Assembly: GCA_965207065.1 (NCBI GenBank) | Contig: OZ242260.1 | Coordinates: forward strand, 1,312,001-1,376,000 | Source: a bacterium | Lineage (GTDB): Bacteria; UBA8248 | Length of the DNA: 64,000 nt | Direction: 5' to 3' | Part shown: piece after piece, positions 7,307 through 42,859 of the stretch | Numbering within the stretch: the first letter of the stretch is position 1 | How the letters are laid out: each line of letters opens with the position of its first letter | Made by a program: the position numbers and the translations under genes | Notes under the pieces: model-generated | Database searches by the model: none | The model's input: the letters and a program-made list of their open reading frames with translations, nothing else | What the model was told of the DNA's origin: nothing

Positions 7307-7401
<95 letters not shown>

Positions 7402-13215: not shown

Positions 13216-13453
13216 ATAGACTGGCGCCATGCCGGGAAACAAACCGCCTGGAACTTTGCGCCCCGGTGTGAGACAGATTCGTCAACGGATCCTGGGCGTT
13301 GCCGTAGGGTGTAGCCGGACGACAAGTCATCGCCCCGAAAAAAATGTTGAGTCGGCTTTTGAATGCGCTATATGATGAATGAGTACTTCAACGACATCAT
13401 AGCGGCATGGAGATGTGTTTAATAAGGAAGATCCGTACCCGGAGGATGACTCG

Positions 13454-16400
13454 ATGAGCACAGGCGGAAATTTCCGTTCTTCCGAACTACCGCAAACCGG
13501 CGCGCAGGCGTCTTCCCGGCCCGGAGAACCCATAGCCATCGTGGGCATGGCGTGCCGGTTTCCCAACGCCGTCGGTCTCCCGGCCTTCTGGCGTCTGCTC
13601 GAGGCCGGCGAGAACGCCGTGACCAGGGGAGATCCGGGTTCGGGCGTGGGGCGCGTGGGCGTGCTTTTCCCCGACGCCGAAATCCAGAGTGAGGCCTGCC
13701 GTTTCGGCGCCTATCTCGAAGATATCGACCAGTTCGACGCCGCGTTCTTCCGCATATCGCCCGTCGAGGCCCAACTCCTGGACCCCCAGCAGCGGCTCAT
13801 GCTGGAGACGAGCTGGCGCGCGCTCGAGGACGCAGGCATGGACCCGGAGCGCCTCAGGGGCAGCCGCACCGGTGTGTACGGAGGCGTCAGCAACAACGAA
13901 TACCGAAACCTGATAATGGACGTCAGCGATACCGCGGAGCCCGCCACGAGCCTGTATACGGTCAGCGGCACCTCCTTCAATACGGCCGTCGGGCGGGTCT
14001 CCTTCGCGCTGGGCTTCGAGGGACCGGCGATTGCGCTCGATACCGCCTGTTCCTCATCGCTTGTCGCGATTCACCAGGCTGTGGCGGGCTTACAAAGGCG
14101 CGAAGCCGATCTGGCCCTGGCCGGAGGCGTGCACACGATCCTCTCGGGCCGACTGCTGGAGTTGCGCGGCAACGCCGGGATGCTCTCGCCCGAGGGGCGA
14201 TGCGCGACGTTCGACGCCGCCGCGAACGGGTACGTGCGGGGCGAGGGCTGCGGAATCGTTGTGCTCAAGCGTCTCGCCGAGGCGGAGGCGGACGGCGACC
14301 GCATCTGGGGCGTGATTCGCGGGTCGGCCATCAACCAGGACGGCGCGAGCCCGGGACTGACGGTGCCGAGCGGCGCGGCGCAGGAGCGGGTGATCGCGGA
14401 GGCGCTCTCGCGGGCCGGAATCAGGCCCCATGAAGTGGATTACCTCGAAGCGCACGGGACGGGTACGGAGGTGGGCGACCCGATTGAGCTGGAAGCGGCG
14501 GCGGCGGCATACGGCAAGGGACGCGCGGCGGACCGCCCGCTATTAATCGGTTCGGTCAAGACCAACATCGGACATCTCGAGTCCTCAGCCGGAGTCGCCG
14601 GCCTGATCAAGGCGACGCTGGCCCTGAAGCAGGGGGTGATCCCCAAACACCTGCACTTCCGGGAGCCTACTCCGGCGGTGGACTGGACGCGAATGTCCTT
14701 GCGAGTAACGGCGGAGGCGACGCAGTGGCCGCGCCATCCCGAACATCCCCCTCGGGCGGGCGTAAGCGGGTTCGGATGGTCGGGCACGAACGCCCACGTG
14801 ATCGTGGAGAGATACGAAACGCAGGAGGGGGATTCCACCGTCGGTGCGATGAATGAACCCGTGGGTTCCGCACTGCCTGTCGCCGTTTCCCCGCCCGAGC
14901 CTGCGGCGGACCCGCCTAAGGCGAGTGATGGGCTCTTAAAGCGCAAAGCACGGATTCTTCCGCTCTCGGGCAAATCGGAGGCTGCGCTTCGCGACCTTGC
15001 GGGGCGGTATCTCTCCTGGCTCGATGAGCGCGAAGAAGCACTCGCTCCCGAAAGCGCCGCGTCGGAGCCGCTGCTCTCGAACATGGCGTGGACGACCGCG
15101 GTGGGGCGGAGCCATTTCACGCACCGCGCGGGTCTCCTCTTCGGCGACGCCGCGCGGCTGCGCGAGGGGTTGAACGCTCTGGCCGAAGGCGGCGAAGCGC
15201 CGGAAGTGCGGACGGCGACCAGGGTAGCGTTCCTCTTCACCGGTCAGGGCAGCCAGTGGGTCGGCATGGGAGGAGACTTGTACGAGACGGAACCGGTGGC
15301 GCGGGCGGTTCTCGATCGTTGCGAGGAAGTCGTTCGCGAGCAAAGGGGCGCCTCGCTGCTGGATGTCATGTTCGGGCGCAGTGAGGGGAATCTGAACGAC
15401 ACCGTCTGGGCGCAGCCGGCCATCTACGCGATCGAGTGCGCCGTCACGGCGCTTTGGGCAAGCCTGGGGGTACGCCCGGACGTGGTGGTGGGACACAGCG
15501 TTGGCGAGTTCGGGGCGGCGCATGCGGCGGGGGTGTTCGGGCTCGAAGACGGAATGCGGGCCGTCATGGGGCGGAGCGAAATTCTGGCGTCGGCGCCGGA
15601 GGCCGGGACGATGGCGGCCGTATTCGCTTCTTACCCGGCAGTTGAAGCGGCGGTGCGCGAATACAACGAGTCGGCCGGGAGCGAGAGGCTTGCGATTGCG
15701 GCGAGAAACGGGGCGCACCAAGTGTTGAGCGGTCAGGTTTCCGCTGTCGAGGCGGTCTCGGAGCGCTTCGAGGCCGAAGAAGTACGGGTGAGGCCGATCA
15801 ACACGAGCCAGGCGTTCCACAGCCCTCTGGTGGAGCCGGGCCTGGATGCACTGGAAGCGCTTTTCGAGAGCGTACGGATAGCGCCTCCCTCGCTCGCCAC
15901 GCTGGTGAGCAACGTGACGGGCCGTGTGGTGGAGCCGGACGAGGTGCTCGGCGGAGGATACTGGCGCCGGCACGCCCGCGAGGCGGTGGCCTTCGACCGC
16001 GGCGTCCGCACGCTGGCGAACCTGGGCGTCGACCTGGTGGTGGAAGTCGGCCCGCACGCGGTGCTGGGACCGATGCTGTCTCTCGCCTGGCCGGGGCCGG
16101 ATGAGGGAGGGGATGACCTTGTCGGGGATGTCGAGGCTCCCCGTGTGTTGGCGAGTCTGCAAAGACCCTCGCAAGACGAGGAGAAACCGGCGGACGAGAT
16201 GGAAACAAGTTTCCCGGGCGCGGTGGCGGGGGCCTATGAGGCGGGGCTCGACCTCTCTTTCCAGGGATTGTTCGCCGGTGAAGAGCGGCGCCGCATCTCG
16301 CTGCCGGGCTATCCCTTCCAGCGCGAACGCTACTGGGTCGAGGCGCCGAAGCGGCGGCGGCGGAGCGTAGGCCTTCCCCTGCTGGGCGAGCGGCATGAAT

Positions 16401-19400
16401 CCGCCAGCGGCGAGATCACGTTCGAGACCGAAGTGCTCCCCTCGGACCCGCCGTGGATGACGGATCACCGGGTGTTCGGCCGGGTCATCGCACCGGGCGC
16501 GCTTTATGGAGCCATGGCGATCTCGGCATCCACCGCCGAGGGAAGCGGTTCGATGCTGGTCGAGGACATGCAATTCCACAACGCGTTGATCTTCGGTGAG
16601 GAGGATTCAGAGGGCGGCGGCGCGGGGCGGGAAGTGCAGGTTCTGCTCGATGCTCCGGGGGATGAGCCCTCGCGCCTCGTGCGGATATTCAGCAAAGGAG
16701 AGGCCGGGGAGGATTGGACGCTGCACGCGGAGTGTCGCGCGCCCTCGGGTGCGAACGCGCAACAGGCCACGGAGCAAGTGGACCTGGAAAGCATGAAGGC
16801 CGGTTTGACACCGGAGGACGTGCCGGCGTTTTACCGCGCCAAGGCGGGTGTGGGGATCGATCTCGGCCCGTCGTTCCGCACGCTGGGGCGTGTGTGGTCG
16901 CGGCAGGGCGAGGCGCTGGGCGAGGTGTACTTCCCCGAGGCGTTAGGCGCGAACGCTCTCGACGTGCACCCCCTCCTGCTCGACGGCTGTTTCCAGGTGA
17001 TGGGCGCGGCGCGCAATCCGGGCGGCGCCGAAGACGGCATCACCTACCTGCCGTTCGGCTGGGAGCGGCTGTGGCTGGCGGACCGGCTGCCGGATCGGCT
17101 TTTGTGCCACGTGCGTATGAGAGAGGCTCCGACGAGCCAGGAGCCGAGCGCCGAAACCGGTGTGGGGCCAGAAGTCTTCGTCGGCGATTTCCGTCTTTAT
17201 GATACGACCGGCGTGCTGGTCGGCGAGTTGAGCGGTTTCATGGTGAAGCGCGCGACGCGGGCGGCGCTGCTCTCGGCGTTGGAAGGCTTGGACGATCTTC
17301 TCTACGAAGTGGTTTGGCGCGAAAGCGCACTTGCGCCCGGTATGCTGCCTGCGGATTTCTTCCCGAGTCCGGGGGAGATAGCCGAGCGCTGGGGGCCGTT
17401 CTCCGACTACCTGGCGGCGGAAGGGGTCGACGCCTCATTGAGGCCCGCATTGCTGACGGACCTCTCGTGCATGGCGCGGCATTTTGCGCTCTCGGCCCTG
17501 GAGAAGCTCGGATGGGAACGGAAGGCGGGCGCTGTAGTGGACACAGAAGATCTGCGCTGGCGCCTGGGGGTCAAGGATGAACACGGCAAACTGTTCCGCC
17601 GGATGCTCGAGATATTGGCGGGGGCCGGCGTTCTGGAGGCGGCGGGTGATGGTTTCGTCGTCGCCGTAGGGGCCGGAGCGCCATTGCCGGAAGGAATTCC
17701 CGGCGATCCAGAAGAATTCGCGGCCGGGGTGAGCGAGCGTTATTCGTATGCTTCGAACGAGATCGGGCTGTTTCGAAGAAGCGCGGGCGCCCTCGCCGAA
17801 GTGCTTCGCGGCGAGGAGGACCCGCTGTCGCTCCTGTTCGGCAGCGGAGAACCGAGCGCCGCGGACCTCTACTTCAAGGCGCCGGTATGGCGTGCGGCGA
17901 ACCGGATGCTGGGAGACGCGGTACGCACCCTCGTCGCCGGGTTGCCCGAAGGACGCCGCCTGCGGGTGATCGAAGTCGGCGCGGGCACGGGGTCGGCGAC
18001 CGAATCCGTCCTGCCCGAGCTTCCCGAGGGGCGCTTCGACTACACCTACACCGACATCTCGGCGGGCTTCTTCGCGCAGGCGGAAGGGCTGTTCAGCGAC
18101 GGCGGCGGGTGCATCGATTACCGGGTGTTGGATATCGAAAAAGACCCGGTGGCGCAGGGCTTCGACTTCCATGGCTATGACCTGGTGATTGCCTCGAACG
18201 TGCTTCACGCCACGCGGTACCTGGAGGAGACGCTCACGCACTGCCGGGCGCTTCTCGCGCCGTCGGGACATCTCGTGGCGCTCGAGAACCTTTGCGGCCA
18301 GGATTGGCTGGATATGACTTTTGGACAACTGGACGGCTGGTGGCGGTTCGCCGACGAGCGCCGCCCCACCTACGCCTTGGCGGGGCCGGACGTTTGGCGG
18401 CATTCCCTTGATGCCGCGGGTTTCGAGGGAATGGAGATTCTGGGGCTGGGCGGGTCCGATTCCGCCGAGATGCCGGACAGGGGTGTGATACTGGCGCAAC
18501 TGCCCGAGGAGGTGGCCGAGCGTCCCGGCGTATGGGTTCTGGCGGCGGACCGCGGCGGCGAAGCCGAACAACTGGCGGCGGAATTAGCGTCGCGCAACCA
18601 GACGGTCGTGCTGGCGAGCGAGGCGGGCTCGACGAACGGGAGTGCTGCGGACGAAAAACCCGGAGTCATCCATACGTCTGTGGAGATGGATAGCCGCGAG
18701 TCCTGGGGAGTGCTGCTGGAGGGCCTGCCCGGAGATGCGCCGCTCAGCGGCGTCGTGCACCTCGCGGCGCTCGACGGCCACGGCCCCGGTGCGACGACCG
18801 AGGAGATGGCGGAGGATGTGAAACGGGTGGGCGCGAGCGCATTGGCCCTGGCGCAGGGGCTCCTGGACGTCGACGCGGCGCCCGGGAAGGGATTTTGGTT
18901 CCTCACGCGGGGCGCGCAGGTGCTGGAGCGCGAACGCGGTGGTGAGCTTGCCGGCGCGACGCTATGGGGTTTCGCTAAAGTGGTGGCCCGGGAAGCGTCC
19001 CACATGGAGCCGAAGTTGATCGATCTGGACCCTGAGCCGACTGCTCCGCCGACGGATATCGCCAATGAACTGCTCTATCCCGATACGGAAAATCAAATCG
19101 TCCACCGCGGCAACAGGCGCCGAGTGGCCCGTCTGGTCCGGACCGGCGAGGGAGCGGAGCGGCTGGCCTTCCCCGAAGAGACGGGCTGGCTGCTGGGTGT
19201 CGGCGAAGAAGGCGCGCTCGACGGCCTGCAGGCGCCGCCGCCGCCGCTCGAGCCGCGAGAAGTCCGCGTGGCCGTCGAGGCCGCCGGGCTCAACTTCTGG
19301 GACGTGTTCGCGGCGCTCGGCCTGATTGACGAAAAATTCCTGGGCACGGAGATGTGCGGCCATATCCTCGAGGTCGGCTCCGAGGTGTCGAGCGCCTCTG

Positions 19401-22400
19401 TGGGCGACCGCGTGGTGGGCGTGAAGCGCGGCGCGCGCGGTATGTTTGGGCCGGAATCCGTGACGCATGAGGATTTGGTGGCGCCCGCGCCGGCGGATTT
19501 ATCGGCCACGGCGCTCGCCACGATACCGACGGTGTTCCTGTCCGCAGCGCTGTCTTATGAACTCGCGGGGCTGAAAGCAGGCGATCGGGTGCTGATTCAC
19601 GCGGGCGCGGGCGGCGTGGGGCTTGCGGCCATCCAGTTGGCGCAGGCGGCGGGAGCGGAAGTGTTCGCGACGGCGAGCGCGCCGAAACAGGGTTACCTCC
19701 GCTCGCTGGGTGTGGAGCACGTATTCGACAGCCGCCAGACGAAATTCGGGGAAGAAATCCTGGAAGCCACGGGCGGCGAAGGCGTCGACCTTATCCTGAA
19801 CAGCCTGACGGCGGAGGGCTTCATCGACGCGTGCCTGTCGTGCCTGGCGGAAGGGGGCCGGTTCGTGGAACTGGCGGCGCGCGACATTCTGAGCGAGGAG
19901 GAGATGGCGGCGGTACGGCCGGACGTGGCCTATTACATCGTGAAGCTCGACGCCATGAAAGAAGATGAGCCGGAGCGGCCGGGGGCCTTGCTGAGAGAGG
20001 TCATGGAGCGGGTGGCGGCGGGAGGACTGAAGCCGCTCGTCCACACCAGGTGGCCGATGGCCGAGGCGAGGCAGGCCGTAGAGTTCATGCGCGACGGACG
20101 CCATATCGGAAAAATCGTCTTTGCGAATTCGCCGCTCACCAGGGGCCGCTTGCGGGAGGACAGGACCTACCTCGTCACCGGAGGCCTGGGCGGCATCGGG
20201 TGCGCCGTGGCCGGCTGGCTCGCCGAAAGGGGTGCCGGGGCTATCGTGCTAAATGGCCGGCGGCCCCCGGACCCGGAAGTCGAGGAAGCGGTCGAATTGT
20301 TGCGCAAGCGCGGGTTCACGGTGCAGGTGCAGCTCGCGGACGTGACGGACCCGGATGCGGTGGACGAGATGCTCGTGCGGATGGATGCGGAGTTGCCGCC
20401 CCTCGGCGGCGTGATCCACAGCGTGGGGGTGCTCTCTGACGGCGCGCTCGGGAACCAGAGCTGGGAGAAGTTCGAGCAGGTGCTTTGGCCCAAAGTGCTG
20501 GGCGCATGGCGCCTACACCGCGCGACGATGACTCGCGATCTGGACATGTTCGTCCTCTTCTCGAGCGCGGCCGGCGTGTTGGGCAACCCGGGCCAGGCGA
20601 ACCACGCGGCGGCCAACGCGTTCCTGGATCAACTCGCCGTCCACCGCCGGGCGCTGGGACTCCCGGGCCAGGCCATCGCCTGGGGCGCGTGGTCGGAGAT
20701 TGGCGAAGCCGAGGAGCAGCGGGAGAGAATCTCCAGAAGTATCGAAGTAACGGGAGTCGGCTGGATGACACCGCAGCAGGGGCTCAGGGCATTCGACCGA
20801 CTGGTTCGCGAGGACGCCGCGAATTCCATGGTTCTGGCGAGGGATTGGTCCGTATTCGAAAAGACTCTGGATAACATTCCCCCGTTTTTCGAAGACCTGC
20901 TTTCCTTCACTCAAGACGCAGAGTCCGACTCGCCCGCCCTGGCGGAAGACCTGTTGTCCCGACTGGCGGAGACGCCCGCTGCGGAGCGCGAGGCCCTGCT
21001 GGTGTCGTTCCTGCAGCAGGAACTCCAGGCGGTGCTGCGGCTGCCGAGCACGCCCGAACCCACGGTGGGATTTTTTGATCTCGGCATGGACTCGCTCATG
21101 GCCGTGGAACTTCGAAACCGGCTGAACCGCGCGTTCACGGACGCCTATACGGCCCCGAACACCGTGGTGTTCGACTATCCAGACATCGCGGTGCTCGCCC
21201 GTCATCTGGCCGGCGAACTCGGCGACCTCGGCCCCGCGCCCGCCCCTCAGGCGCAACCCGAGCCGGAGCGTCGGCCCGCCGCGCCGCGCAAGGAGGAGCA
21301 GATCGCGGTCGTCGGCATGGCGTGCCGCTTCCCGGGCGCGCCCGACATTTCCGCCTTCTGGCGTTTGCTCGAAGCGGGCGTCGACGCGGTGACGGACGGG
21401 CGGCGCGATTCCGGCCCCTGGAGCGGCGTCGCCGGAGACCCCGAAGCCGAGGAAGCCGTCTACCGTCGAGGCGGGTTCATCGAAGGAATCGACTTATTCG
21501 ACGCACGTTTCTTCGGCATCAAGCCGATCGAGGCGTGGATGATGGACCCGCGCCAGAGGATGTTGCTGGAAACGAGCTGGGAGGCGCTCGAGGACGCAGG
21601 CATCGACCCCGCACCGCTCAAGGGTACTCGCGCAGGAGTATATGTCGGGCTGGGCGGCAGCGAGTACCGGGACCTGGTAACGGCCAGCGGCCTGGAGGAC
21701 AGCTATCTCGGCACCGCCCCGAGCGTCACCATCGGGCGGGTCGCCTTCGCCCTCGGTCTGATGGGGCCTGCGGTGCCGCTGGACATGACCTGCGCATCGT
21801 CGCTTGTGGCGGTGCACCAGGCGGCCGCAGCCCTCCGGCGAGGCGAGGTGGACCTGGCTCTTTCCGGAGGGGTAAACGCAGTGCTGTCCCTCCCGATTAC
21901 GAAATTCATGGCGGAGTTCGGCATGTTGTCGCCGAGCGGTCTGTGCCGGACCTTCGATGCGACTGCGGACGGCTTCGTTCGCGGCGAGGGCTGCGGCATC
22001 GTGGTGATGAAGCGGTTGAGCGACGCGGAGGCGGACGGCGACCGCATCTGGGGCCTGGTGCGGGGATCGGCTGTCAACCAGAACGGCGCGAGCGCCGCGC
22101 TGACGGTGCCCAACGGTACGGCGCAGGAACAAGTGCTCGAAGATGCGCTCGCCCGGTCCGGTTTTCCGCCCTCGGAAGTGGATTATCTGGAAGCGCATGC
22201 GACGGGGTCGCAACTGGGCGATCCGATTGAGGTGCGCGCATCGGCGGCGGTGTACGGGCGAGGACGCACGGCGGACCGCCCGCTCCTGCTCGGCACGGCG
22301 AAGACGAACATCGGCCATCTGGAGTCGGCCGCGGGAATCGCCGGCCTGATCAAGGTATTGCTGGCGATGAAGCATGGAGTCATTCCCAAACACCTGCATT

Positions 22401-23842
22401 TCGATAACCCGAATCCGCACATGGAGTGGGACGCGCTACCGGTTCGGGTGACTTCTGAAGCAATGGAATGGCCGGCTGCCGCCGCTCACCCGCACCGCGC
22501 GGGGGTGAGCGCATTCGCCCTTTCGGGGACGAACGCGCACGTCCTGGTGGAGGGGTATGGCGCGCCGGAGAGCGACCCCGCGGCAGGTGCCGGGCGGGGT
22601 TCCCCTGCGGGTTCAGCGCAGCCTGTCGCCGTAATGCTGCCGGAGTTGGTCCCGGAATCGCCGACGGCGGAGGGGTTACGCCCGCGCCGGATGCGGATGC
22701 TTCCGCTATCGGGCAAATCGGGCGATGCGCTTCGTAAACTGGCGGAACGGTATCTCTCCTGGATGGACGAGCGCGCTGAGGAGCTTTCCGCCGAAGACGC
22801 CATGCAGTCCGTATTGCCGGACATGGCATGGACGGCGTCCGTGGGGCGGAGCCATTTCGCGCACCGCGCGGGCGTCGTATTCGAGGACGCAACGTCGTTG
22901 CGGGAAGGATTGAGAGCGCTTGCGGAGTCAGACGAGTTCCCGAAGCCGCGGGCTGCGGCGCGGGTGGCCTTCGCATACGCCGGAGAAGACGGCATTCAGG
23001 TCGGCTTGGGTGAGGCGTTGTATGAGAGCGATCCGGTGGCGCGTGCGGTTCTGGACCACTGCGACGATGTGCTCCGGGTGGAGCGCGGCGCTTCGCTGCT
23101 GGACGTGATGTTCGGCCGCACTGGAGAACTGGACGACCCGGGGTGGGCGCAGCCGGCGGCCTTTGCGCTCGAATGTGCGCTCACGGCGCTTTGGGCGAGC
23201 GTCGGGATTCGGCCGAACGTGGTGTTCGGGGCAGGCGCGGGAGAGATAGCGGCGGCGCATGCGGCGGGCGTGTTCAGCCTGGAGGAGGGCTTGCGTTTCG
23301 CCGCAAGGCGCGGTGCGCTGATGGAGGCGCTCACGGGAGGCGAAGGACAGGAAGCGGCGCTCGACGAACTGGAAACGGCGCTCGAGGGCGTCGTAACGGC
23401 GTTGCCTTCACTTACGCTGGTGAACCAGGTGACAGGCCAGGCCCTCGGCCCGGGCGAAACGATGGATGCGGCGTACTGGCGACGACAAGCGCGTGAGCCA
23501 GCGGCGTTCGAGGGATGTGTGGGGACGCTCACGGAGTTGGGGGTGGAGGTCGTCGTGGAGATCGCCGTGGACTCGATATTGACGCAGCGGGTGGCATCGG
23601 CCTTGCCAGGGCCTGGAGGCGACGAAGGAGCGAGCGGGAATGGCGCCGCGCCGCCGGTGGTGTTTTCGAGCATAAGGCAATCGTCTGTAAGTGAGCACGG
23701 TTTCGTCGAGGCGGTAGCGCGGGCGTATGAGGCGGGACTCTCGATCGATTTTGCTTGGCTGTTCGCCGGAGAGGAGAGGCGGCGGATCTCGTTGCCGGGC
23801 TACCCGTTCCAACGCCTGCGCTTCTGGTTCGATGCAACTTAA
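13454..23842 (+). CDS. supA: SupA-type type I PKS: KS-AT-DH-MT-ER-KR-ACP-KS-AT(degenerate)
   Basis: KS1 [84 protein letters not shown]2 DMTCASS/HATGS/NIGH; GGAGG RBS at 13441; followed by ACP, PPTase, hydrolase and permease as in sponge-symbiont sup clusters. Confidence 0.92.
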
Positions 23843-23875: not shown

Positions 23876-23931
23876 CTGACTTCATTTTCAATCACCGTCC
23901 TGTGCTTTTTCTAAAGAAAGGAAACGCGACT

Positions 23932-24153
23932 ATGGCGTCAATTGAAGAACGTGTAGGAGATCTTGCAGAGAAACATCTGGGCATTTCGGATCGGGCGATG
24001 CTGGATGCAAGCGTCGGCGAACTCGGTATTAATTCGATGGATGCCGTGAATTTTCTCAAGACTGTCAATCAGGAATTCGGGGTCGATATTTCTCCCGACG
24101 AAGCCGCAGGTTTCAACAACTTCAGAGACTTGATCAACCATCTTGGAGGTTGA
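23932..24153 (+). CDS. supB: Free-standing acyl carrier protein
   Basis: 73 aa, acidic, LGINSMD Ppant motif, EFGVDI. Confidence 0.88.
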   Translation: MASIEERVGDLAEKHLGISDRAMLDASVGELGINSMDAVNFLKTVNQEFGVDISPDEAAGFNNFRDLINHLGG

Positions 24154-24314
24154 AACCGAACCCTGTTGTGCATGGCCCTTCACTTGGGCGAAAAACACAG
24201 GATTTCGGAGATCATTTCGTTTCATACGGGAACCGGGGCCAGTCCCGCGAGTCTGGCTCCGGTTTTGAGACGCATAGGTGACGACTCCGGCGCTCGCGGA
24301 AAGATTGAAAGACC

Positions 24315-25055
24315 ATGTCTGCTGACGCCCTCGATTCCTGGTTCCGAACGTTTCATGAAATGGATGACATTCTCGTCGTGCATGTCGACCTGACGCCTCA
24401 TGAGGCTCGCGAGGCGCACGCTTTTGCCTGGCTTGACGAGAAAGAACGGGCTCGCTGGCGCCGATACCGATATAACCGCCCCCGGGGCGAATTCACCCTG
24501 TGCCGCGGGGCGCTGCGCTCCATACTTTGCTCCCGGCTCGGGTGCAAGAACGAACGTCTCTCGTTCGACGTATTGAAGCATGGGAAACCGTTCGCGCTGG
24601 TGGACGGAATTGCGGCTCCCGTCAGCTTCAACGTCAGTCACGGCGGCAAATATGGATTGATAGCGCTTGCGCCGCAGGGGCGGCTCGGCGTGGACGTGGA
24701 GGAGCGCGTCGCTCGCTTCGATCTCGATGGAATGAGCGAGTTCGTGTTCAGCCCAGGCGAGCAAGCCGACTTCGCAGCGGTGCGTGGACAAGTAAAATTT
24801 CATTTGTTCTTCACGCTCTGGACGCTCAAAGAGGCGCTCATCAAGGCCCTCGGAACGGGGTTTTCCCTGGATCCGTCCCGGTTTGAAATTCCATCGGCCA
24901 TGCGGCGAGGCGCAAGAAAGGGCATGTTCCGATTCCCCCACATACCGGATGTCGGGTGGAGACTCGAAAATCTGGGCAATCCGGATTTCGCCGCCGCCAT
25001 CGCCTATGAAGCGGATCTAGCTCTCGTTCGGGGGGCGAGCGAGGGGTCTCGATGA
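24315..25055 (+). CDS. supC: Sfp-type 4'-phosphopantetheinyl transferase
   Basis: HGKP, FNVSH, LGVDVE, WTLKEALIKALG. Confidence 0.92.
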   Translation: MSADALDSWFRTFHEMDDILVVHVDLTPHEAREAHAFAWLDEKERARWRRYRYNRPRGEFTLCRGALRSILCSRLGCKNERLSFDVLKHGKPFALVDGIAAPVSFNVSHGGKYGLIALAPQGRLGVDVEERVARFDLDGMSEFVFSPGEQADFAAVRGQVKFHLFFTLWTLKEALIKALGTGFSLDPSRFEIPSAMRRGARKGMFRFPHIPDVGWRLENLGNPDFAAAIAYEADLALVRGASEGSR

Positions 25056-27761: not shown

Positions 27762-28060
27762 CCGGTCGTTCGCGCACAAACGAGAAGAATCATATACATG
27801 GCTCGCAGCGGGATTCCGGGCTTTGGATTCTACAGAGAACGACGTATCACTTCCTCTTGTCGTGAACCTTCCTGGCGCGGGCGGCCACCGTCGCGCCATG
27901 CCGCTATCATCGATGCGGGTGGCGGGACGACCCGCAATCTTCGGGGTCCGCGGGCTTGTCGGAATGCGGATGCTTTACCTATAATTGCGATATGGGTTTC
28001 GCGACACACGACCGCTTCAGAATCTTGCGTTTGCGACCACCGGGAAAGGGATACACATTC

Positions 28061-28288
28061 ATGTCGACAACACAGACCCGCATCAAACAAATCGTTGCGC
28101 ACACTCTCGACCTCGACCATGAGCTGGATTTCAATGCCCAGCTCAGCGAATCAGAAGTTACCTCAATGGAGGCGGTCGCTTTCTTCAAACTGGTCGACAA
28201 GCAGTTCGGCCTTGAGTTGGCCATAGAGGACTTCGCGAAGTTCCAGACCCTGCAGGATATCGTAGAACATATCGACGCACGCGGCTGA
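28061..28288 (+). CDS. Second free-standing acyl carrier protein
   Basis: 75 aa, VTSMEAV Ser motif, QFGLEL, FQTLQDIVEHI; similar to the ACP at 23932. Confidence 0.82.
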   Translation: MSTTQTRIKQIVAHTLDLDHELDFNAQLSESEVTSMEAVAFFKLVDKQFGLELAIEDFAKFQTLQDIVEHIDARG

Positions 28289-28329
28289 TCGGCGTTCCTC
28301 GACGCTCGGGCGCAGCCAAGCCGCCGGAT

Positions 28330-34582: not shown

Positions 34583-34674
34583 GGAGAGATGGCCGAGTGG
34601 CTGAAGGCGCTCGCCTGCTAAGCGAGTAGGCTGGGAAACCGGCCTCGAGGGTTCGAATCCCTCTCTCTCCGCCA
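34583..34674 (+). tRNA. tRNA-Ser(GCT)
   Basis: Acceptor GGAGAGA/TCTCTCC-G-CCA; anticodon arm CTCGC-CTGCTAA-GCGAG; long variable arm. Confidence 0.97.
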
Positions 34675-39112: not shown

Positions 39113-39250
39113 ACCCTGCGATGAAGTCGACCGGCCAGGCGCCCTCGTGGCACCCGGGAGTATCCACTTACCGCTGCTTCCTTCCGGACCTGACGGGGTT
39201 CGCGGGCTCCCGCCGCACGAGACCCAACCGGCCGAATTCATCGCAGGCTC
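39113..39250 (-). ncRNA. ffs: Signal recognition particle RNA (4.5S)
   Basis: Minus strand GTCAGGTCCGGAAGGAAGCAGC in a long hairpin; upstream of dnaX; ends approximate. Confidence 0.92.
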
Positions 39251-39538: not shown

Positions 39539-40402
39539 ATGCCTTACTCGAAAGTCGTCGAACTCACGGAAGGAAAGGTTTACGCCCTCCACAATACTTT
39601 TCCCCTGGACGGGCGGATCAGCGCATATCCCATCAGCGCACGCGGGCACAGCGTCTCGAACTGCTTTCTATTGAAAGATGACTCAGGTGCGCTCCTGCTC
39701 GATACGGGCTACGCCGCCCACGAGGCCGAAATTCTGGCGCAGCTGGAATCTCTCATCGACCCCGATTCGCCCCTGCATCTGCTTCCATTGCGAATCAACG
39801 AATTCATGTCTGTGGGCAACGCCATGGCGATCGCCAAGCGCTTCAACGTGGTGGAGTGCCTCGCCCCGGTGCCGGAAATCAACGAGTGGCTCGAGTTCGA
39901 AGCGCTCGAGCCCGGCGGCGGAAACAACGGCAATCCCATCCTTCCCACCACGATATTGAAACCGCTTCATCCCATCGAAATCGGCGATAGATACATCGAG
40001 GTGATGATCGCGCCGATTCGTCTCATCAGCACCCGCTGGATTTACGATGCGGCCACGCGCACGCTGTTCACCTCGGACATGTTCAGCCATCTTTGGACGG
40101 ATAGGGCGGAAGGTCCCTGGCTGCTGGATGAAGACGAGGTGACGACGACTTCTTTCGTTCGCTCGTTCCTGCTGAACACGCGCTACTGGTGGCTCGAGGG
40201 TGCGAGGACAAATTCCATCCGCAAAGGGGTCGCCGAAGTCTTCGAGCGCTACGATATCGAGACCATCGCTCCGGGCTACGGCGCCATCCTGCGCGGGCGT
40301 CATCTGGTAGAGCAGCAATTCGCCGTGCTGGATGAGGTTCTGGCGGGTTTCGACCGGAGCGTCGTCAAACCAGGGTACGTCGCATTGGGATTAGAGAGAT
40401 AG
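39539..40402 (+). CDS. Metallo-beta-lactamase-fold protein (FprA/ODP-like) with degenerate metal ligands
   Basis: NCFLL..LLDTG, LFTSDMF, IAPGYG. Confidence 0.7.
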   Translation: MPYSKVVELTEGKVYALHNTFPLDGRISAYPISARGHSVSNCFLLKDDSGALLLDTGYAAHEAEILAQLESLIDPDSPLHLLPLRINEFMSVGNAMAIAKRFNVVECLAPVPEINEWLEFEALEPGGGNNGNPILPTTILKPLHPIEIGDRYIEVMIAPIRLISTRWIYDAATRTLFTSDMFSHLWTDRAEGPWLLDEDEVTTTSFVRSFLLNTRYWWLEGARTNSIRKGVAEVFERYDIETIAPGYGAILRGRHLVEQQFAVLDEVLAGFDRSVVKPGYVALGLER

Positions 40403-40410
40403 GAGCGCTC

Positions 40411-41172
40411 ATGAGCTATCCTCTGCCCCGTGAAGTCTCGCCCGGCGTATTCTGGCTCGGCGACTGCCTCGTGCAGCACTCACAAGGCAAAATCTATCAC
40501 TCCTACAACGCGGCCTTCCTCGTCATCGGCTCAGAAGCCTCCATGCTCGTGGAGACGGGACATCCCAAGGATTTTCCCATTATCGAAGGGCAGATGAGAG
40601 ATATACTTGCCAAAGGCGGCGGGCCGCTCAAACACCTTTTCCTCACCCATCAGGAAACGCCCCACTCGGGCGGTCTGGGCCGCGTGCTCGACAGATACCC
40701 CGACCTCACCATCCACGGGGACATGTGCGACTACCATCTGGCGTTTCCCGAGCACGAGGGACGCTTCCAGGAGATGCGCGTGGGAGACGCCATCGACTTA
40801 GGAAATACGCAATTCATGGCCGTGGAGCCCGTGATCAGGGACTTGAGGAGTTCTCTCTGGGGATTCGAAACCAAAGGGCGCGTGCTGTTTCCCGGAGACG
40901 GCTTCGCCTACAGCCACTACCATACCGATGGTCACTGCGGAATGTTCGCCGAGGAGGCCACTTCTCTCGATCTGGTTGATGTGCTGGGCGTTTTCGCCGA
41001 ACGCGCCCTGTTCTGGACCACCTTCACCGACATGAACATCTACGCCGACAAACTCGAAGAACTGATGGCCGAGTTAAACGTCGAAATCGTAGCGCCGACG
41101 CACGGCCTCCCCATACGGGACATCGCGCGCACGATGCCGAAAGTCCGAGAAGGCCTAATCCAGGGCAATTAA
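40411..41172 (+). CDS. Metallo-beta-lactamase-fold protein (FprA/ODP-like)
   Basis: SYNAAFL, VETG, THQETPH, FPGDGF, APTHG. Confidence 0.78.
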   Translation: MSYPLPREVSPGVFWLGDCLVQHSQGKIYHSYNAAFLVIGSEASMLVETGHPKDFPIIEGQMRDILAKGGGPLKHLFLTHQETPHSGGLGRVLDRYPDLTIHGDMCDYHLAFPEHEGRFQEMRVGDAIDLGNTQFMAVEPVIRDLRSSLWGFETKGRVLFPGDGFAYSHYHTDGHCGMFAEEATSLDLVDVLGVFAERALFWTTFTDMNIYADKLEELMAELNVEIVAPTHGLPIRDIARTMPKVREGLIQGN

Positions 41173-41608: not shown

Positions 41609-41820
41609 ATCCGCATTCCTCCCGGCCTCGCGCGGCGGCGGAACGCGCTCCCCTCGCCGCGCCGGCCATTCATAGATTTGGTGACCCCCTGTTTAGCAGG
41701 CTTGGCGCGATTCCTCAATCAAACCCGCCTGGGAAACTATATTTCAGAGAGCGTTTGTCGTATCCTTCGTACATCAACACTATTAAACGAGCCGCATATT
41801 CATCCATGAGGAGAACATCC

Positions 41821-42384
41821 ATGCAAGAAGGCCCCATCGACGGACACAGCACCTCCACCGTGCTGGGCGAGCGCGTCATCGACAAGCCCGAACACCCGGC
41901 CGGAGGACTCTTTACCGACAACACCGTCCACACGGAGATGCACGAGGGCTCCCTGCAGCTCAAACGCGGCGCCGCCGGAAAATTCGAGATATTCTGCGAC
42001 GAGGGCGCGGGAATCGGCGGCACGGCCCAATACCCCACGCCCATGGCCTATCTCGCGATGGCGACGGGGTTCTGACTGCTCACCCAGGTGTCGCGGTACG
42101 CGCACATGATGAAAATGGAAATCAAAGGAGCGAGCGTCTCTGTCCGGTTCCGAAAACTTTTGGGCGGCTCGGTGCTCAAGGGCACCGTGTTCAACAAGTG
42201 GGAGAGCGTGGACACGCACCTGAAAGTCGAATCGGACGAGCCCGCGGACAGGCTCGCCCACCTCATCAAGAACGCCAAGAACGGCTGTTTCGCCGAGGCC
42301 CTCATTTCAGAGCCCGTGCCGCTCAACTCCACCATCGAGGTGAACGGCGAGCCCTTCAAGATAGAGGGCGTGACGGCGGATTAA
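41821..42384 (+). CDS. OsmC/Ohr-like peroxidase, predicted selenoprotein (Sec85, TGA 42073-42075)
   Basis: AGGAG RBS; DEG..IGG....PTP..YL..GF-TGA-LLTQ reads in frame into the 42088-42384 ORF with second Cys (NGCF); hairpin after the TGA. Confidence 0.88.
42085..42108 (+). promoter_or_regulatory. Bacterial SECIS-like hairpin (OsmC-like gene)
   Basis: GTG-(bulged T)-CGCG-GTA-CGCG-CAC beginning 13 nt after the TGA. Confidence 0.75.
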
Positions 42385-42406
42385 CATCAATACATGGAGT
42401 TTATGG

Positions 42407-42859
42407 ATGGAATATTTCAACGCATCGGACGACATATCCTTCGGCTCGCAGCCCGAGCCCGCGGACCTCGAAGCCCTCGCCGCAAGAGGGGTCAAGACCA
42501 TCATCAACACGCGCTTTCCCGAGGAAGACCAGGGCGATTTGCCTCCCGAGCGCGCCAGGGCCGAGGCCGAGGCGCTGGGCATGCGCTACGTGAACATCCC
42601 CGTCTCGCCGGTCGAGTTCACTCCTGCCTCGCTGGCCGAGGTGAGCCGCGCGCTCGCTGAAGCCAAGGCCCGCGGCCCCGCCTTCGTCCACTGAAAGGCC
42701 ACGGGGCGGGCCGGGATTTGCTCGCTGAACCATCTGGCGGATGAGAACGACTGGACGGCGCGGGAGATGGAGGGGGCCGCCGACGCCACCGGCTTCGACT
42801 GGCGCGACGCGCCGCTCGCGCCCAAGTACCGCGAGTTCTTCTCCCGGAGGCCCGGCTAG
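42407..42859 (+). CDS. DUF442/Blh-type phosphatase-fold sulfurtransferase, predicted selenoprotein (Sec96, TGA 42692-42694)
   Basis: SQP..DL..LA..GVKTIIN.R..E, GMRYVNIPV, then FVH-TGA-KATGRA (C-x4-R loop); frame stays open 54 more codons to TAG. Confidence 0.82.
42705..42726 (+). promoter_or_regulatory. Bacterial SECIS-like hairpin (DUF442-like gene)
   Basis: GGCGGGC/GCTCGCT 7-bp stem with two G-U pairs, loop CGGGATTT, beginning 11 nt after the TGA. Confidence 0.62.

What the first reader, a model, noticed from the sequence alone, without database searches (positions are those of the whole stretch)
42407..42859. DUF442/phosphatase-fold protein with Sec in the active-site loop (H-U-K-A-T-G-R)
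Seen: the 95-aa ORF stops at FVH-TGA; read-through gives HUKATGRAGIC...W..REM..AADATGFD, 150 aa in total, with a Cys 9 residues after U. Established: DUF442 (Blh N-terminal, SQR-fused) domains use an HC-x4-R loop for sulfane-sulfur transfer. Inference: a Sec sulfur/selenium transferase, possibly forming a selenenylsulfide with the nearby Cys. I do not recall it among the commonly listed selenoprotein families.
Basis: partly seen in the sequence, partly recalled or inferred. Interest (0 to 1): 0.85.

Follow-up and report, generated by a model that had tools for sequence, protein, structure and literature searches.

The report
New selenocysteine sulfur-transferase (DUF442) gene
This is a real gene whose apparent stop codon almost certainly encodes selenocysteine at the catalytic position of a DUF442 sulfur-transferase-like enzyme, a selenoprotein family absent from the current catalogue and cut short at 95 residues in public databases.

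Summary
The ORF starts at ATG 42407 and meets TGA at 42692-42694 (codon 96). Read through, it gives 150 aa ending at TAG 42857-42859, with FVH-U-KATGR and Cys105 nine residues after U.

The read-through protein is a DUF442/PF04273 domain: 45.5 bits against a cut-off of 26.1, aligned across the TGA. An AF2 model has pLDDT 96.4, and its best PDB match is 2f46.

Evidence that the TGA encodes Sec:
- Of 78 related genomic loci, 24 have TGA at this column and 54 have Cys.
- All 24 keep the frame open. dN/dS is 0.18 after the TGA and 0.17 before it.
- A 7-bp hairpin with an 8-nt loop, starting 13 nt after the U of UGA, meets the published bacterial SECIS criteria. Its synonymous sites are almost frozen (dS 0.056 against about 0.70).
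- The gene immediately upstream is an OsmC-type selenoprotein (NF041052).

The family is not among the 119 families in a May 2026 catalogue. Public gene calls truncate it at 95 aa.

Sulfane-sulfur transfer through a Se-S intermediate is inferred from homology only. The proposed U96-C105 selenenylsulfide is untested. The Cys105 codon lies in the hairpin's 3' arm, so RNA pairing may dictate it.

Verdict: a new member of a known kind, of moderate interest.

The parts
42396..42399 (+). GGAG, a ribosome-binding-site-like motif 7 nt before the start codon
   Evidence: Read directly. The gap to the upstream OsmC stop is 22 nt, so the two genes are probably co-transcribed (inference).
42407..42859 (+). 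Complete coding sequence of the DUF442-family selenoprotein: 150 codons plus the TAG stop
   Evidence: Searches give the ORF and read-through. Pfam PF04273 scores 45.5 bits over residues 7-102. The AF2 model has pLDDT 96.4 over all 150 residues. Foldseek gives 2f46_A with TM 0.76/0.80.
42692..42694 (+). In-frame TGA, codon 96, read as selenocysteine at the catalytic nucleophile position
   Evidence: TGA in 24 of 24 close loci and Cys in 54 of 54 distant loci at the same column. 54 of 65 database hits are ORFs cut at exactly 95 aa.
42692..42709 (+). P-loop U96-K-A-T-G-R101, the U-x4-R equivalent of the DUF442 C-x4-R loop
   Evidence: Alignment A4: C96 in 56 of 58 and R101 in 56 of 58 Cys forms. 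The catalytic C94/R99 pair of the SQR-fused DUF442 is described in PMC6441731.
42705..42726 (+). SECIS-like hairpin: 5' arm 42705-42711, 8-nt loop 42712-42719, 3' arm 42720-42726
   Evidence: MFE is -9.7 kcal/mol. All 140 of 140 cells pair across 25 sequences; two pairs vary on one side only (G.U to A-U) and none shows a double change. Codons 100-107 have the lowest third-position entropy of all 141 eight-codon windows (0.112 against 0.755 gene-wide; 1 of 100000 random codon sets is as low), and dS is 0.056 against about 0.70. The hairpin meets the four bSECIS criteria quoted in PMC13188914.
42719..42721 (+). Cys105 codon (TGC): candidate resolving cysteine, and also part of the hairpin's 3' arm
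   Evidence: Cys is present in 12 of 12 Sec rows but only 1 of 58 Cys-form rows (P0036) at this column. G42720 and C42721 pair with the Ala102 codon (structure).
41806..42384 (+). Upstream neighbour: OsmC-like selenoprotein gene with TGA at 42073-42075. The start codon is uncertain (TTG 41755 or ATG 41806).
   Evidence: Read-through. Pfam OsmC. NCBIfam NF041052 OsmC_like_Se scores 164.2 bits against a cut-off of 95. It lies upstream of the DUF442 gene in 20 of 24 loci, with TGA in 20 of 20.

Best explanation
The gene encodes a 150-residue cytoplasmic selenoprotein of the DUF442 (PF04273, Blh-type sulfur transferase, PTP-like fold) family. The catalytic cysteine of the H-C-x4-R loop is replaced by selenocysteine.

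How the UGA is read: the UGA at codon 96 is recoded by the bacterial SelB/tRNA-Sec system. That system would be recruited by a 7-bp hairpin with an 8-nt loop, beginning 13 nt after the U of UGA. The hairpin's 5' arm is made of the P-loop codons Gly100-Arg101-Ala102, and its 3' arm of codons Cys105-Ser106-Leu107.

How the enzyme most likely works: the selenolate, held in the positively charged P-loop cradle, attacks a sulfane-sulfur donor such as a persulfide, polysulfide or thiosulfate. This gives an enzyme Se-S intermediate that passes the sulfur to an acceptor. It probably acts with the co-transcribed OsmC-type selenoperoxidase in handling reactive sulfur or oxygen species.

What is shown: family membership, the fold, the conserved UGA with Cys in homologues, coding selection after the UGA, the conserved hairpin, and the selenoprotein neighbour.

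What is inferred: actual Sec insertion, the sulfur-transfer chemistry, and any role of Cys105.
For: Family and fold:
- PF04273 scores 45.5 bits against a cut-off of 26.1, over residues 7-102 and across the TGA.
- The Blh model NF040641 aligns residues 6-135.
- A family profile hits 2f46 at 6.7e-19 and 3gxg at 8.5e-16.
- The AF2 model has pLDDT 96.4. Helices 100-114, 118-127 and 138-146 come from the part after the TGA.
- Foldseek's top matches are 2f46_A (TM 0.76/0.80) and 3gxg/3gxh.

Sec decoding:
- 24 of 78 loci have TGA and 54 of 78 have Cys at the column.
- 54 of 65 word-index hits are 95-aa ORFs, and all 16 of those aligned in A1 end at His95.
- One full-length Cys homologue, P0036 (50% identity), has FVHCKAIGRAGVCS.
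- dN/dS is 0.168 before the TGA and 0.177 after the hairpin.
- Hairpin synonymous sites are frozen. The hairpin keeps 20 of 22 nt in L023, whose gene is only 62% identical at the nucleotide level.
- The bSECIS criteria are met: loop 8 nt, stem 7 bp, loop begins C-G-G, spacing 17 nt, MFE -9.7.
- TGA is the commonest ordinary stop in the window, at 15 of 32 long ORFs. UGA is therefore not reassigned genome-wide.
- The adjacent OsmC gene matches NF041052 OsmC_like_Se.
- BSepDB lists MAGs named Nitrospinota, Nitrospinaceae or Nitrospinae bacterium, which it files under GTDB phylum UBA8248, with 48-54 selenoprotein genes (passage of PMC13326102). The closest loci here bear such names.

Function:
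- DUF442 domains have sulfur-transferase activity, with the loop Cys essential (PMC5823870 and PMC6441731, passages).
- The loop here is U-x4-R-Ala, not the phosphatase C-x5-R-Ser/Thr.
- Among 15 longer relatives scanned, P0069 is Lactamase_B + Rhodanese + DUF442, P0070 is Rhodanese + DUF442, and P0087 is AhpC/TSA + DUF442.
Against: - There is no direct evidence of selenium incorporation. No tRNA-Sec was found in the window, and sel genes were not looked for; the source genome could not be searched.
- The hairpin shows no compensatory double changes. The shuffle control is uninformative because the stem hardly varies.
- Hairpin stability is not unusual. The z-score is -2.2 for the 22-nt piece and -0.5 to -0.7 for longer pieces. 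13 of 54 Cys-form loci have an equally stable 22-nt hairpin at that place.
- Rfam has no matching family.
- The protein does not reach the curated cut-offs of TIGR01244 (46.9 against 85.85) or NF040641 (55.3 against 625). It is therefore a divergent DUF442 subfamily whose substrate may differ.
- The neighbourhood has no sulfide:quinone oxidoreductase and no clear persulfide dioxygenase. The two MBL-fold neighbours resemble the diiron domain of flavodiiron proteins instead.
- In 4 of 24 loci the OsmC gene is not adjacent.
Confidence: 0.6

Rival explanations
1. It is a genuine selenoprotein of the DUF442 fold that works as a selenol/thiol oxidoreductase, not a sulfur transferase. U96 and Cys105 would cycle through a selenenylsulfide. 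It might recycle the neighbouring OsmC-type selenoperoxidase, be recycled by it, or reduce an oxyanion bound in the P-loop in the manner of an arsenate reductase.
For: - Cys105 is invariant in the Sec forms (12 of 12 rows in A4; 24 of 24 loci) and almost absent elsewhere (1 of 58).
- The gene lies 22 nt after an OsmC-type selenoprotein in most loci.
- Two flavodiiron-like diiron proteins lie just upstream, which suggests an oxidative-stress theme.
- A relative is fused to an AhpC/TSA peroxiredoxin domain (P0087).
Against: - Codon 105 is in the hairpin's 3' arm and must be NGC to pair with the Ala102 codon. Cys may therefore be the best-tolerated of Ser/Gly/Arg/Cys at a buried position that is Phe/Leu/Met in Cys forms (inference).
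- The U96-C105 distance could not be measured, because no model coordinates are available to scripts.
- No DUF442 member is documented as an oxidoreductase in the papers I read.
Confidence: 0.25
2. The TGA is an ordinary stop. The product would be a 95-residue fragment, or the gene a pseudogene, and the downstream frame would be non-coding.
For: Public gene callers annotate it that way: 54 of 65 hits are 95-aa ORFs, and one is named 'sulfur transferase domain-containing protein'. TGA is the commonest stop in the window.
Against: - A 95-aa product ends one residue before the catalytic loop and lacks three helices of the domain.
- The TGA and the open downstream frame are kept in 24 of 24 species-level genomes, down to 53% identity.
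- dN/dS downstream is 0.18.
- Cys occupies the column in 54 of 54 other loci.
Confidence: 0.03
3. It is a selenocysteine-containing protein phosphatase (tyrosine or dual-specificity type) that forms a Se-phospho-enzyme intermediate.
For: It has a PTP-like fold. Foldseek matches from rank 5 downward are phosphatases such as TpbA, Tk-PTP, PFA-DSP1 and PTPMT1. Pfam PTP-NADK scores 27.4 bits against a cut-off of 27.
Against: The loop is U-x4-R followed by Ala, one residue shorter than the phosphatase C-x5-R-Ser/Thr seen in true PTP relatives in the same search (L033, L047). The best sequence and fold matches are the DUF442 proteins, whose tested activity is sulfur transfer.
Confidence: 0.05
4. UGA is read here as another residue, through a variant genetic code or near-cognate read-through as Trp or Cys, without the Sec machinery.
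For: None specific. It would also keep the frame open.
Against: - 15 of 32 long ORFs in the window end in TGA.
- With a codon-position GC filter, only two TGA read-through candidates in 64 kb look coding, and both put the TGA at a catalytic Cys column.
- A conserved hairpin at SECIS distance follows the codon.
- The neighbour belongs to a curated selenoprotein family.
Confidence: 0.02

Closest known systems
DUF442 / Blh-type sulfur-transferase domains (PF04273, TIGR01244): the N-terminal domain of Xylella/Agrobacterium Blh and the DUF442 fused to Cupriavidus SQR; structures 2f46, 3gxg/3gxh
   Same: Same Pfam family, above its cut-off. Same PTP-like fold (TM 0.76/0.80 to 2f46). Same H-nucleophile-x4-R loop followed by Ala/Gly. 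Similar single-domain size of about 150 aa.
   Different: The nucleophile is Sec, not Cys. The protein is below the TIGR01244 and NF040641 curated cut-offs. It is not fused to, or next to, a persulfide dioxygenase or SQR. It carries a clade-specific Cys nine residues after the nucleophile.
Rhodanese-like selenoproteins (PF00581, forms 1-5 in Table 1 of PMC13188914)
   Same: These are sulfur-transferase-type enzymes in which the catalytic Cys is replaced by Sec, so the expected chemistry is analogous (Table 1).
   Different: The fold and family are unrelated, with no PF00581 match. This is a functional analogy only, not membership.
OsmC-like selenoprotein (NF041052, PF02566), the gene immediately upstream
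   Same: Same organism and probably the same transcript. Same pattern of Sec at a catalytic Cys column, with a SECIS-like hairpin after the UGA.
   Different: It is a different fold and a catalogued family. Its hairpin differs: a 3-nt GUA loop and one unpaired U in the 5' arm of the stem.
Cys-based protein tyrosine / dual-specificity phosphatases (C-x5-R-S/T)
   Same: Overall fold, and a P-loop at the N-terminus of a helix.
   Different: The loop here is one residue shorter, and Ala replaces the Ser/Thr after Arg. No phosphatase selenoprotein is listed in the catalogue.

Membership tests
DUF442 / PF04273 (BLH_phosphatase) | Match to the Pfam model above its gathering score | tested here: met
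   45.5 bits against 26.1, E 1.1e-11, residues 7-102 on profile positions 6-99 of 110, spanning the TGA.
DUF442 / PF04273 (BLH_phosphatase) | H-C-x4-R active-site loop with the nucleophile at the conserved column | tested here: met
   The loop reads H95-U96-x4-R101. In 58 Cys forms of A4, H is present in 56, C in 56 and R in 56. Here the nucleophile is encoded by TGA.
DUF442 / PF04273 (BLH_phosphatase) | PTP-like alpha/beta fold as in 2f46 and 3gxg | tested here: met
   AF2 pLDDT 96.4. Foldseek gives 2f46_A at E 2.8e-8 with TM 0.76/0.80, and 3gxg/3gxh at TM 0.70-0.72.
TIGR01244 sulfur transferase subfamily / NF040641 Blh | Score above NCBIfam's curated cut-off | tested here: not met
   TIGR01244 scores 46.9 against 85.85, and NF040641 scores 55.3 against 625. 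I therefore file the protein under the Pfam family only, as a divergent subfamily.
DUF442 sulfur transferases | Sulfane-sulfur transfer activity (thiosulfate:cyanide/GSH; GSSH:sulfite) | not testable with these tools
   The activity is known for Blh and the SQR-fused DUF442 (PMC5823870 and PMC6441731, passages). It has not been assayed for this protein.
Bacterial selenoproteins | In-frame UGA conserved in orthologues, with the downstream frame kept and under purifying selection | tested here: met
   24 of 24 loci. dN/dS is 0.177 for codons 108-148 against 0.168 for codons 1-95.
Bacterial selenoproteins | Cys-containing homologues with Cys aligned to the UGA | tested here: met
   54 of 54 non-TGA loci (45 TGC, 9 TGT). 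P0036 is aligned residue by residue.
Bacterial selenoproteins | bSECIS by the consensus model: loop 3-9 nt, upper stem 4-16 bp, G in the first two loop positions, 16-37 nt from UGA to loop, MFE <= -7.5 | tested here: met
   Loop 8 nt beginning C-G-G, stem 7 bp, spacing 17 nt, MFE -9.7 kcal/mol. The criteria are quoted from PMC13188914, Fig. 2 legend. Synonymous sites are frozen. There is no compensatory covariation.
Bacterial selenoproteins | Sec machinery (selA, selB, selC, selD) in the same genome | not testable with these tools
   No tRNA-Sec in the 64-kb window. Indirect support comes from the adjacent NF041052 selenoprotein gene and the 48-54 selenoprotein genes reported for similarly named MAGs.
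Bacterial selenoproteins | Selenium demonstrated in the protein | not testable with these tools
   This needs 75Se labelling or mass spectrometry.
Protein tyrosine / dual-specificity phosphatases | C-x5-R-(S/T) signature loop | tested here: not met
   The loop is U-K-A-T-G-R-A: four residues between nucleophile and Arg, then Ala. True PTP relatives in the same search show C-x5-R-T (L033, L047).
Rhodanese-like selenoproteins (PF00581) | Rhodanese domain match | tested here: not met
   No PF00581 hit at E <= 1.

The most novel reading that the evidence does not exclude
This would be the first selenoenzyme of the PTP-like fold, and one half of a two-selenoprotein module. The DUF442 selenol, with Cys105 as a resolving thiol, would exchange a Se-S (or Se-Se) bond with the co-transcribed OsmC-type selenoperoxidase, or carry persulfide or perselenide for it. 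That would give these selenoprotein-rich bacteria a selenium-based relay for reactive sulfur, oxygen or selenium species, with no Cys-only counterpart described.
Probability: 0.15. Interest if true: 0.7.

Novelty: new member of a known kind. Interest (0 to 1): 0.5.

Why it matters
It adds a fold (PTP-like, DUF442) to the list of enzymes that use selenocysteine. The 119-family table of PMC13188914 does not list it, and NCBIfam release 20.0 returned no selenoprotein-specific model for it.

It corrects a systematic annotation error. At least 54 protein clusters in public collections, and 24 species-level genomes, carry the gene as a 95-residue stub that lacks the active site.

It gives a natural Sec/Cys pair for testing what selenium contributes to sulfane-sulfur transfer.

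The gene also shows clearly how a SECIS hairpin and a catalytic loop share the same nucleotides. This may explain clade-specific residues that would otherwise be read as functional.

Tried and rejected
- The single-sequence PDB search found nothing at E <= 0.01. The family profile was needed.
- Rfam at gathering thresholds found only an SRP RNA and two tRNAs, and nothing at the hairpin.
- Folding energy is not diagnostic. The z-score is -0.72 for 76 nt, -0.49 for 49 nt and -2.2 for the 22-nt hairpin. 13 of 54 Cys-form loci have an equally stable hairpin.
- The covariation test is uninformative: 5 of 7 pairs never vary, 2 vary on one side only, and all 500 shuffles equal the observed value.
- The terminator scan around the gene found none, and found one weak promoter-like site downstream.
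- A bulk Pfam scan of 141 TGA read-through candidates failed because there was too much to print, and I did not repeat it. Instead, a codon-position GC filter over all read-through candidates with at least 25 codons before and 15 after the TGA left five. These were the OsmC gene, this gene, and three that lie antisense to long ORFs and look spurious. This is a crude filter, not a full selenoprotein survey of the window.
- Neighbours in the four loci without OsmC (L019, L022, L023, L024) gave no common theme. They included dihydroxy-acid dehydratase, ABC transporter parts, amine oxidase, and a molybdopterin oxidoreductase with NarJ-like and 4Fe-4S proteins.
- Literature searches:
  - 'selenoprotein' + 'DUF442' found 0 papers.
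  - 'COG3453' found 0 papers.
  - TIGR01244/PF04273/pfam04273 found 9 papers, of which 6 were listed; none of those titles concerns selenoproteins.
  - 'DUF442' alone found 34 papers, of which 25 were listed; no title concerns selenoproteins.
  - The sponge/Nitrospinota/selenoproteome search turned up no relevant paper.
  - One search was badly designed: 'selenocysteine' + 'selenoprotein' swamped it, so it says nothing.
- The BSepDB supplement (one xlsx, about 4.0 million characters searched) has no PF04273, TIGR01244, 'phosphatase', 'sulfur transferase' or DUF442. It also lacks 'UBA8248', so it may not hold family or taxon names.
- PMC12013261 (Haft and Tolstoy 2025) is not held and was not read.
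- The GOS paper PMC2398784 has no DUF442 (passages).
- I considered complex prediction for OsmC with DUF442 and did not run it, because gene adjacency alone does not justify a binding claim.
Full report
**1. The observation**

The + strand has ATG at 42407, preceded by GGAG 7 nt upstream. The ORF of 95 codons ends ...PAFVH and is followed by TGA at 42692-42694. Reading TGA as U gives 150 residues up to TAG 42857-42859. The coordinates, the length and the Cys nine residues after U are all as described.

**2. Family and fold**

- The read-through protein matches Pfam PF04273 (BLH_phosphatase, formerly DUF442) at 45.5 bits against a gathering score of 26.1. The match covers residues 7-102, so it runs across the TGA.
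- NCBIfam gives only sub-threshold matches: TIGR01244 at 46.9 against 85.85, and the Blh model NF040641 at 55.3 against 625. The latter alignment runs over residues 6-135. No selenoprotein-specific NCBIfam model matches.
- A single-sequence PDB search found nothing. A profile of 24 family members hits 2f46 (6.7e-19, profile positions 2-133) and 3gxg, 'Putative phosphatase (DUF442)' (8.5e-16). In both, the loop Cys aligns to the U column.
- An AlphaFold2 model from a 70-row alignment has mean pLDDT 96.4. Three of its helices (100-114, 118-127, 138-146) come from the part after the TGA.
- Foldseek against the PDB ranks 2f46_A first (TM 0.76/0.80). The 3gxg/3gxh chains follow, and phosphatases of the PTP/DSP fold come after them.
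- A 95-residue product would therefore end one residue before the catalytic loop and lack a third of the domain.

**3. Is the TGA a Sec codon?**

*Database hits.* The word-index search returned 65 hits:
- 54 are ORFs of exactly 95 aa, at 64-98% identity. One is named 'sulfur transferase domain-containing protein'.
- One is a full-length Cys form (P0036, 162 aa, 50% identity).
- One is a frameshifted 112-aa variant, and one is a 100-aa chimera ending FVH.
- Eight are distant PTP-like proteins.

All 16 fragments aligned in A1 end at His95. P0036 reads FVHCKAIGRAGVCS, with Cys opposite U.

*Genomic loci.* The scan of one genome per species matched 317 stretches. Of these, 270 encode relatives, and the best 80 were kept as 78 loci.
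- 24 of the 78 (L001-L024) have TGA at column 96. These are MAGs titled Nitrospinota, Nitrospinaceae or simply 'bacterium', plus one Candidatus Tectomicrobia at 53% identity.
- The other 54 have Cys (45 TGC, 9 TGT).
- All 24 TGA loci keep the frame open to about residue 148-155.

*Selection.* I used an ungapped codon alignment of 24 sequences, leaving out L023 because of indels:
- dN/dS is 0.168 for codons 1-95 and 0.177 for codons 108-148.
- Translation therefore continues past the TGA.

*Code reassignment.* TGA is not reassigned generally. It ends 15 of the 32 long non-overlapping ORFs in the window.

**4. The hairpin**

From 13 nt after the U of UGA, a stem of seven pairs encloses an 8-nt loop that begins C-G-G (42705-42726). 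Its MFE is -9.7 kcal/mol. These values meet all four constraints of the consensus bacterial SECIS model quoted in PMC13188914 (section 5, read in full):

| Criterion | Model | Here |
|---|---|---|
| Apical loop | 3-9 nt | 8 nt |
| Upper stem | 4-16 bp | 7 bp |
| G in the first two loop positions | required | loop begins C-G-G |
| Spacing from UGA to loop | 16-37 nt | 17 nt |
| MFE | <= -7.5 kcal/mol | -9.7 |

Across 25 sequences all 140 of 140 cells pair. The only variation is G.U to A-U at two pairs, with no double change, and the shuffle control cannot discriminate.

The strong evidence is at synonymous sites:
- Codons 100-107 have a mean third-position entropy of 0.112 against 0.755 gene-wide. 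This is the lowest of all 141 eight-codon windows. Only 1 of 100000 random codon sets is as low.
- dS is 0.056 against about 0.70.
- In L023 the gene is 62% identical at the nucleotide level, but 20 of the 22 hairpin bases are kept.

Against over-reading this:
- Stability alone is ordinary for this GC content.
- 13 of 54 Cys-form loci have an equally stable hairpin at that place.
- Rfam has no matching family.

**5. Context**

*The upstream gene.* The gene 22 nt upstream (41806-42384) is an OsmC-like protein with TGA at 42073-42075, at the first catalytic Cys column.
- It matches NCBIfam NF041052, 'OsmC-related (seleno)protein', at 164.2 bits against a cut-off of 95.
- It has its own hairpin with a GUA loop.
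- It precedes the DUF442 gene in 20 of 24 loci, with TGA in 20 of 20.

*Further upstream.* Two MBL-fold genes (39539-40402 and 40411-41172) resemble the diiron domain of flavodiiron proteins. A methylmalonyl-CoA-epimerase-like gene lies on the other strand.

*Downstream.* On the other strand are a short-chain dehydrogenase and an aminotransferase-fold gene.

*The lineage.* No tRNA-Sec is in the window. BSepDB reports 48-54 selenoprotein genes in MAGs named Nitrospinota, Nitrospinaceae or Nitrospinae bacterium, which it places in GTDB phylum UBA8248 (passage). Whether the window's organism belongs there was not tested.

*Other read-through candidates.* A crude codon-position GC filter finds only these two genes as credible TGA read-through genes in the 64 kb.

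**6. Evolution**

A quick maximum-likelihood tree of 86 rows puts the 25 Sec forms in one clade of 28 rows (SH-aLRT 98). The clade also holds two 95-aa fragments (P0071, P0072) and the Cys form P0036. Sec thus seems to have arisen in one subfamily. One Cys member is nested in it or sister to it, and the direction of change cannot be told without a root. A third 95-aa fragment (P0135) lies just outside.

**7. Mechanism**

DUF442 domains are sulfur transferases:
- In the SQR-fused domain of Cupriavidus, Cys94 is the conserved, functionally essential residue. It sits in a positively charged pocket near Arg99, carries the persulfide, and passes the sulfur to sulfite (PMC6441731, passages).

The window protein has the same nucleophile-x4-Arg-Ala loop. 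It does not have the C-x5-R-Ser/Thr loop of phosphatases, which the true PTP relatives in the same search do show.

Of 15 longer relatives scanned, one is Lactamase_B + Rhodanese + DUF442, one Rhodanese + DUF442, one AhpC/TSA + DUF442 and one DUF442 + YHS. Nine of the others show only PTP-like or DUF442 matches, some with two DUF442 stretches, and P0068 matched only DUF6181.

The most likely chemistry is therefore attack of the Sec selenolate on a sulfane-sulfur donor, a Se-S intermediate, and transfer to an acceptor. The setting would be reactive sulfur or oxygen species, shared with the OsmC-type selenoperoxidase. This step is inference.

**8. Cys105**

Cys105 is invariant in the Sec forms and occurs in only 1 of 58 Cys forms (P0036). 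Elsewhere the column is Phe, Leu or Met. That fits a resolving cysteine.

The hairpin offers another explanation:
- Its 5' arm is made of codons 100-102. In A4, Arg101 is kept in 56 of 58 and Ala102 in 44 of 58 Cys forms, while residue 100 is Gly in 11 of the 12 Sec rows but variable among the Cys forms.
- Its 3' arm is made of codons 105-107.
- To pair with the Ala codon, codon 105 must be NGC (Ser, Gly, Arg or Cys).
- To pair with the Arg codon, codon 106 must be CCG or UCG (Pro or Ser).

Cys-Ser may simply be the tolerable solution. This is read from the sequence and the structure; it is inference.

**9. Novelty**

- Table 1 of PMC13188914 (May 2026, 119 families and subfamilies, read in full) has five rhodanese-like forms and the OsmC-like family. 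It has no PF04273, TIGR01244 or PTP-fold entry, and term searches in it were negative.
- The deep-Sep paper's new families do not include it (passages). The GOS paper's table does not either (passages).
- Library searches: 'selenoprotein' + 'DUF442' gave 0 papers, and 'COG3453' gave 0. TIGR01244/PF04273 gave 9 papers, and none of the 6 listed titles concerns selenoproteins.
- Haft and Tolstoy 2025 could not be read. The BSepDB website could not be consulted, and its supplement held none of the terms.
- Subscription journals are not covered.

On this evidence it is an uncatalogued selenoprotein family of an otherwise known kind. The Sec-for-Cys replacement, the SECIS position and the Cys homologues are all textbook. 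Interest is moderate.

Noticed in passing
window 41806-42384 (+), TGA at 42073-42075: An OsmC-like selenoprotein gene lies immediately upstream. It matches NF041052 at 164.2 bits against a cut-off of 95. Standard gene calling splits it into two ORFs (41755-42075 and 42088-42384). Its hairpin after the UGA has a 3-nt GUA loop and one unpaired U in the 5' arm of the stem.
   Followed up: yes
window 39539-40402 and 40411-41172 (+): Two tandem MBL-fold genes. The second resembles the diiron domain of flavodiiron proteins (FprA/NorV; PDB 2ohh at 9e-10) but has no flavodoxin domain. The pair is conserved upstream of the selenoprotein pair in 17 of 24 loci.
   Followed up: partly
window 42705-42726 (+): Dual coding: the hairpin's 5' arm is made of the P-loop codons Gly-Arg-Ala, and its 3' arm of codons Cys105-Ser106-Leu107. 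The clade-specific Cys-Ser may therefore be imposed by RNA pairing, not by catalysis.
   Followed up: partly
proteins P0051, P0058, P0076, P0154: Public gene calls of this family are fragmented in several ways. There are 95-aa N-terminal stubs, a 53-aa ORF (P0076) that starts at the Met right after the TGA in the U-M-A-S-G-R variants, and a 30-aa C-terminal piece (P0154). There is also a 112-aa variant (P0051) whose sequence diverges from the family after about residue 69, and a 100-aa piece (P0058) with a short-chain-dehydrogenase-like N-terminus.
   Followed up: partly
proteins P0069, P0070, P0087, P0171: Cys-form relatives occur fused to Lactamase_B + Rhodanese, to Rhodanese, to an AhpC/TSA peroxiredoxin domain and to a YHS domain. 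The peroxiredoxin fusion parallels the OsmC adjacency seen here.
   Followed up: partly
L019:1456-2622 (+): In this locus the frame of the DUF442 gene is open for 293 codons upstream of the usual ATG. Pfam finds only the DUF442 part in that ORF, so this may be chance or an N-terminal extension.
   Followed up: partly
L023:4819-8425 (-): In the Tectomicrobia locus the Sec-DUF442 gene lies next to a molybdopterin oxidoreductase, a NarJ-like chaperone and a 4Fe-4S protein on the other strand. There is no OsmC gene.
   Followed up: no
window 13415-23842 (+), and about 23900-25055 and 27956-28300: A single ORF of 3475 aa. The read-through translations printed show small acyl-carrier-protein-like ORFs and a phosphopantetheinyl-transferase-like ORF beside it. 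This looks like a large PKS/NRPS-type locus, but it was not checked with any family search.
   Followed up: no
window 39130-39229 (-), 7307-7399 (+), 34583-34674 (+): A bacterial small SRP RNA (74.3 bits) and two tRNA-Ser genes (anticodons GGA and GCT). No tRNA-Sec is present in the window.
   Followed up: no
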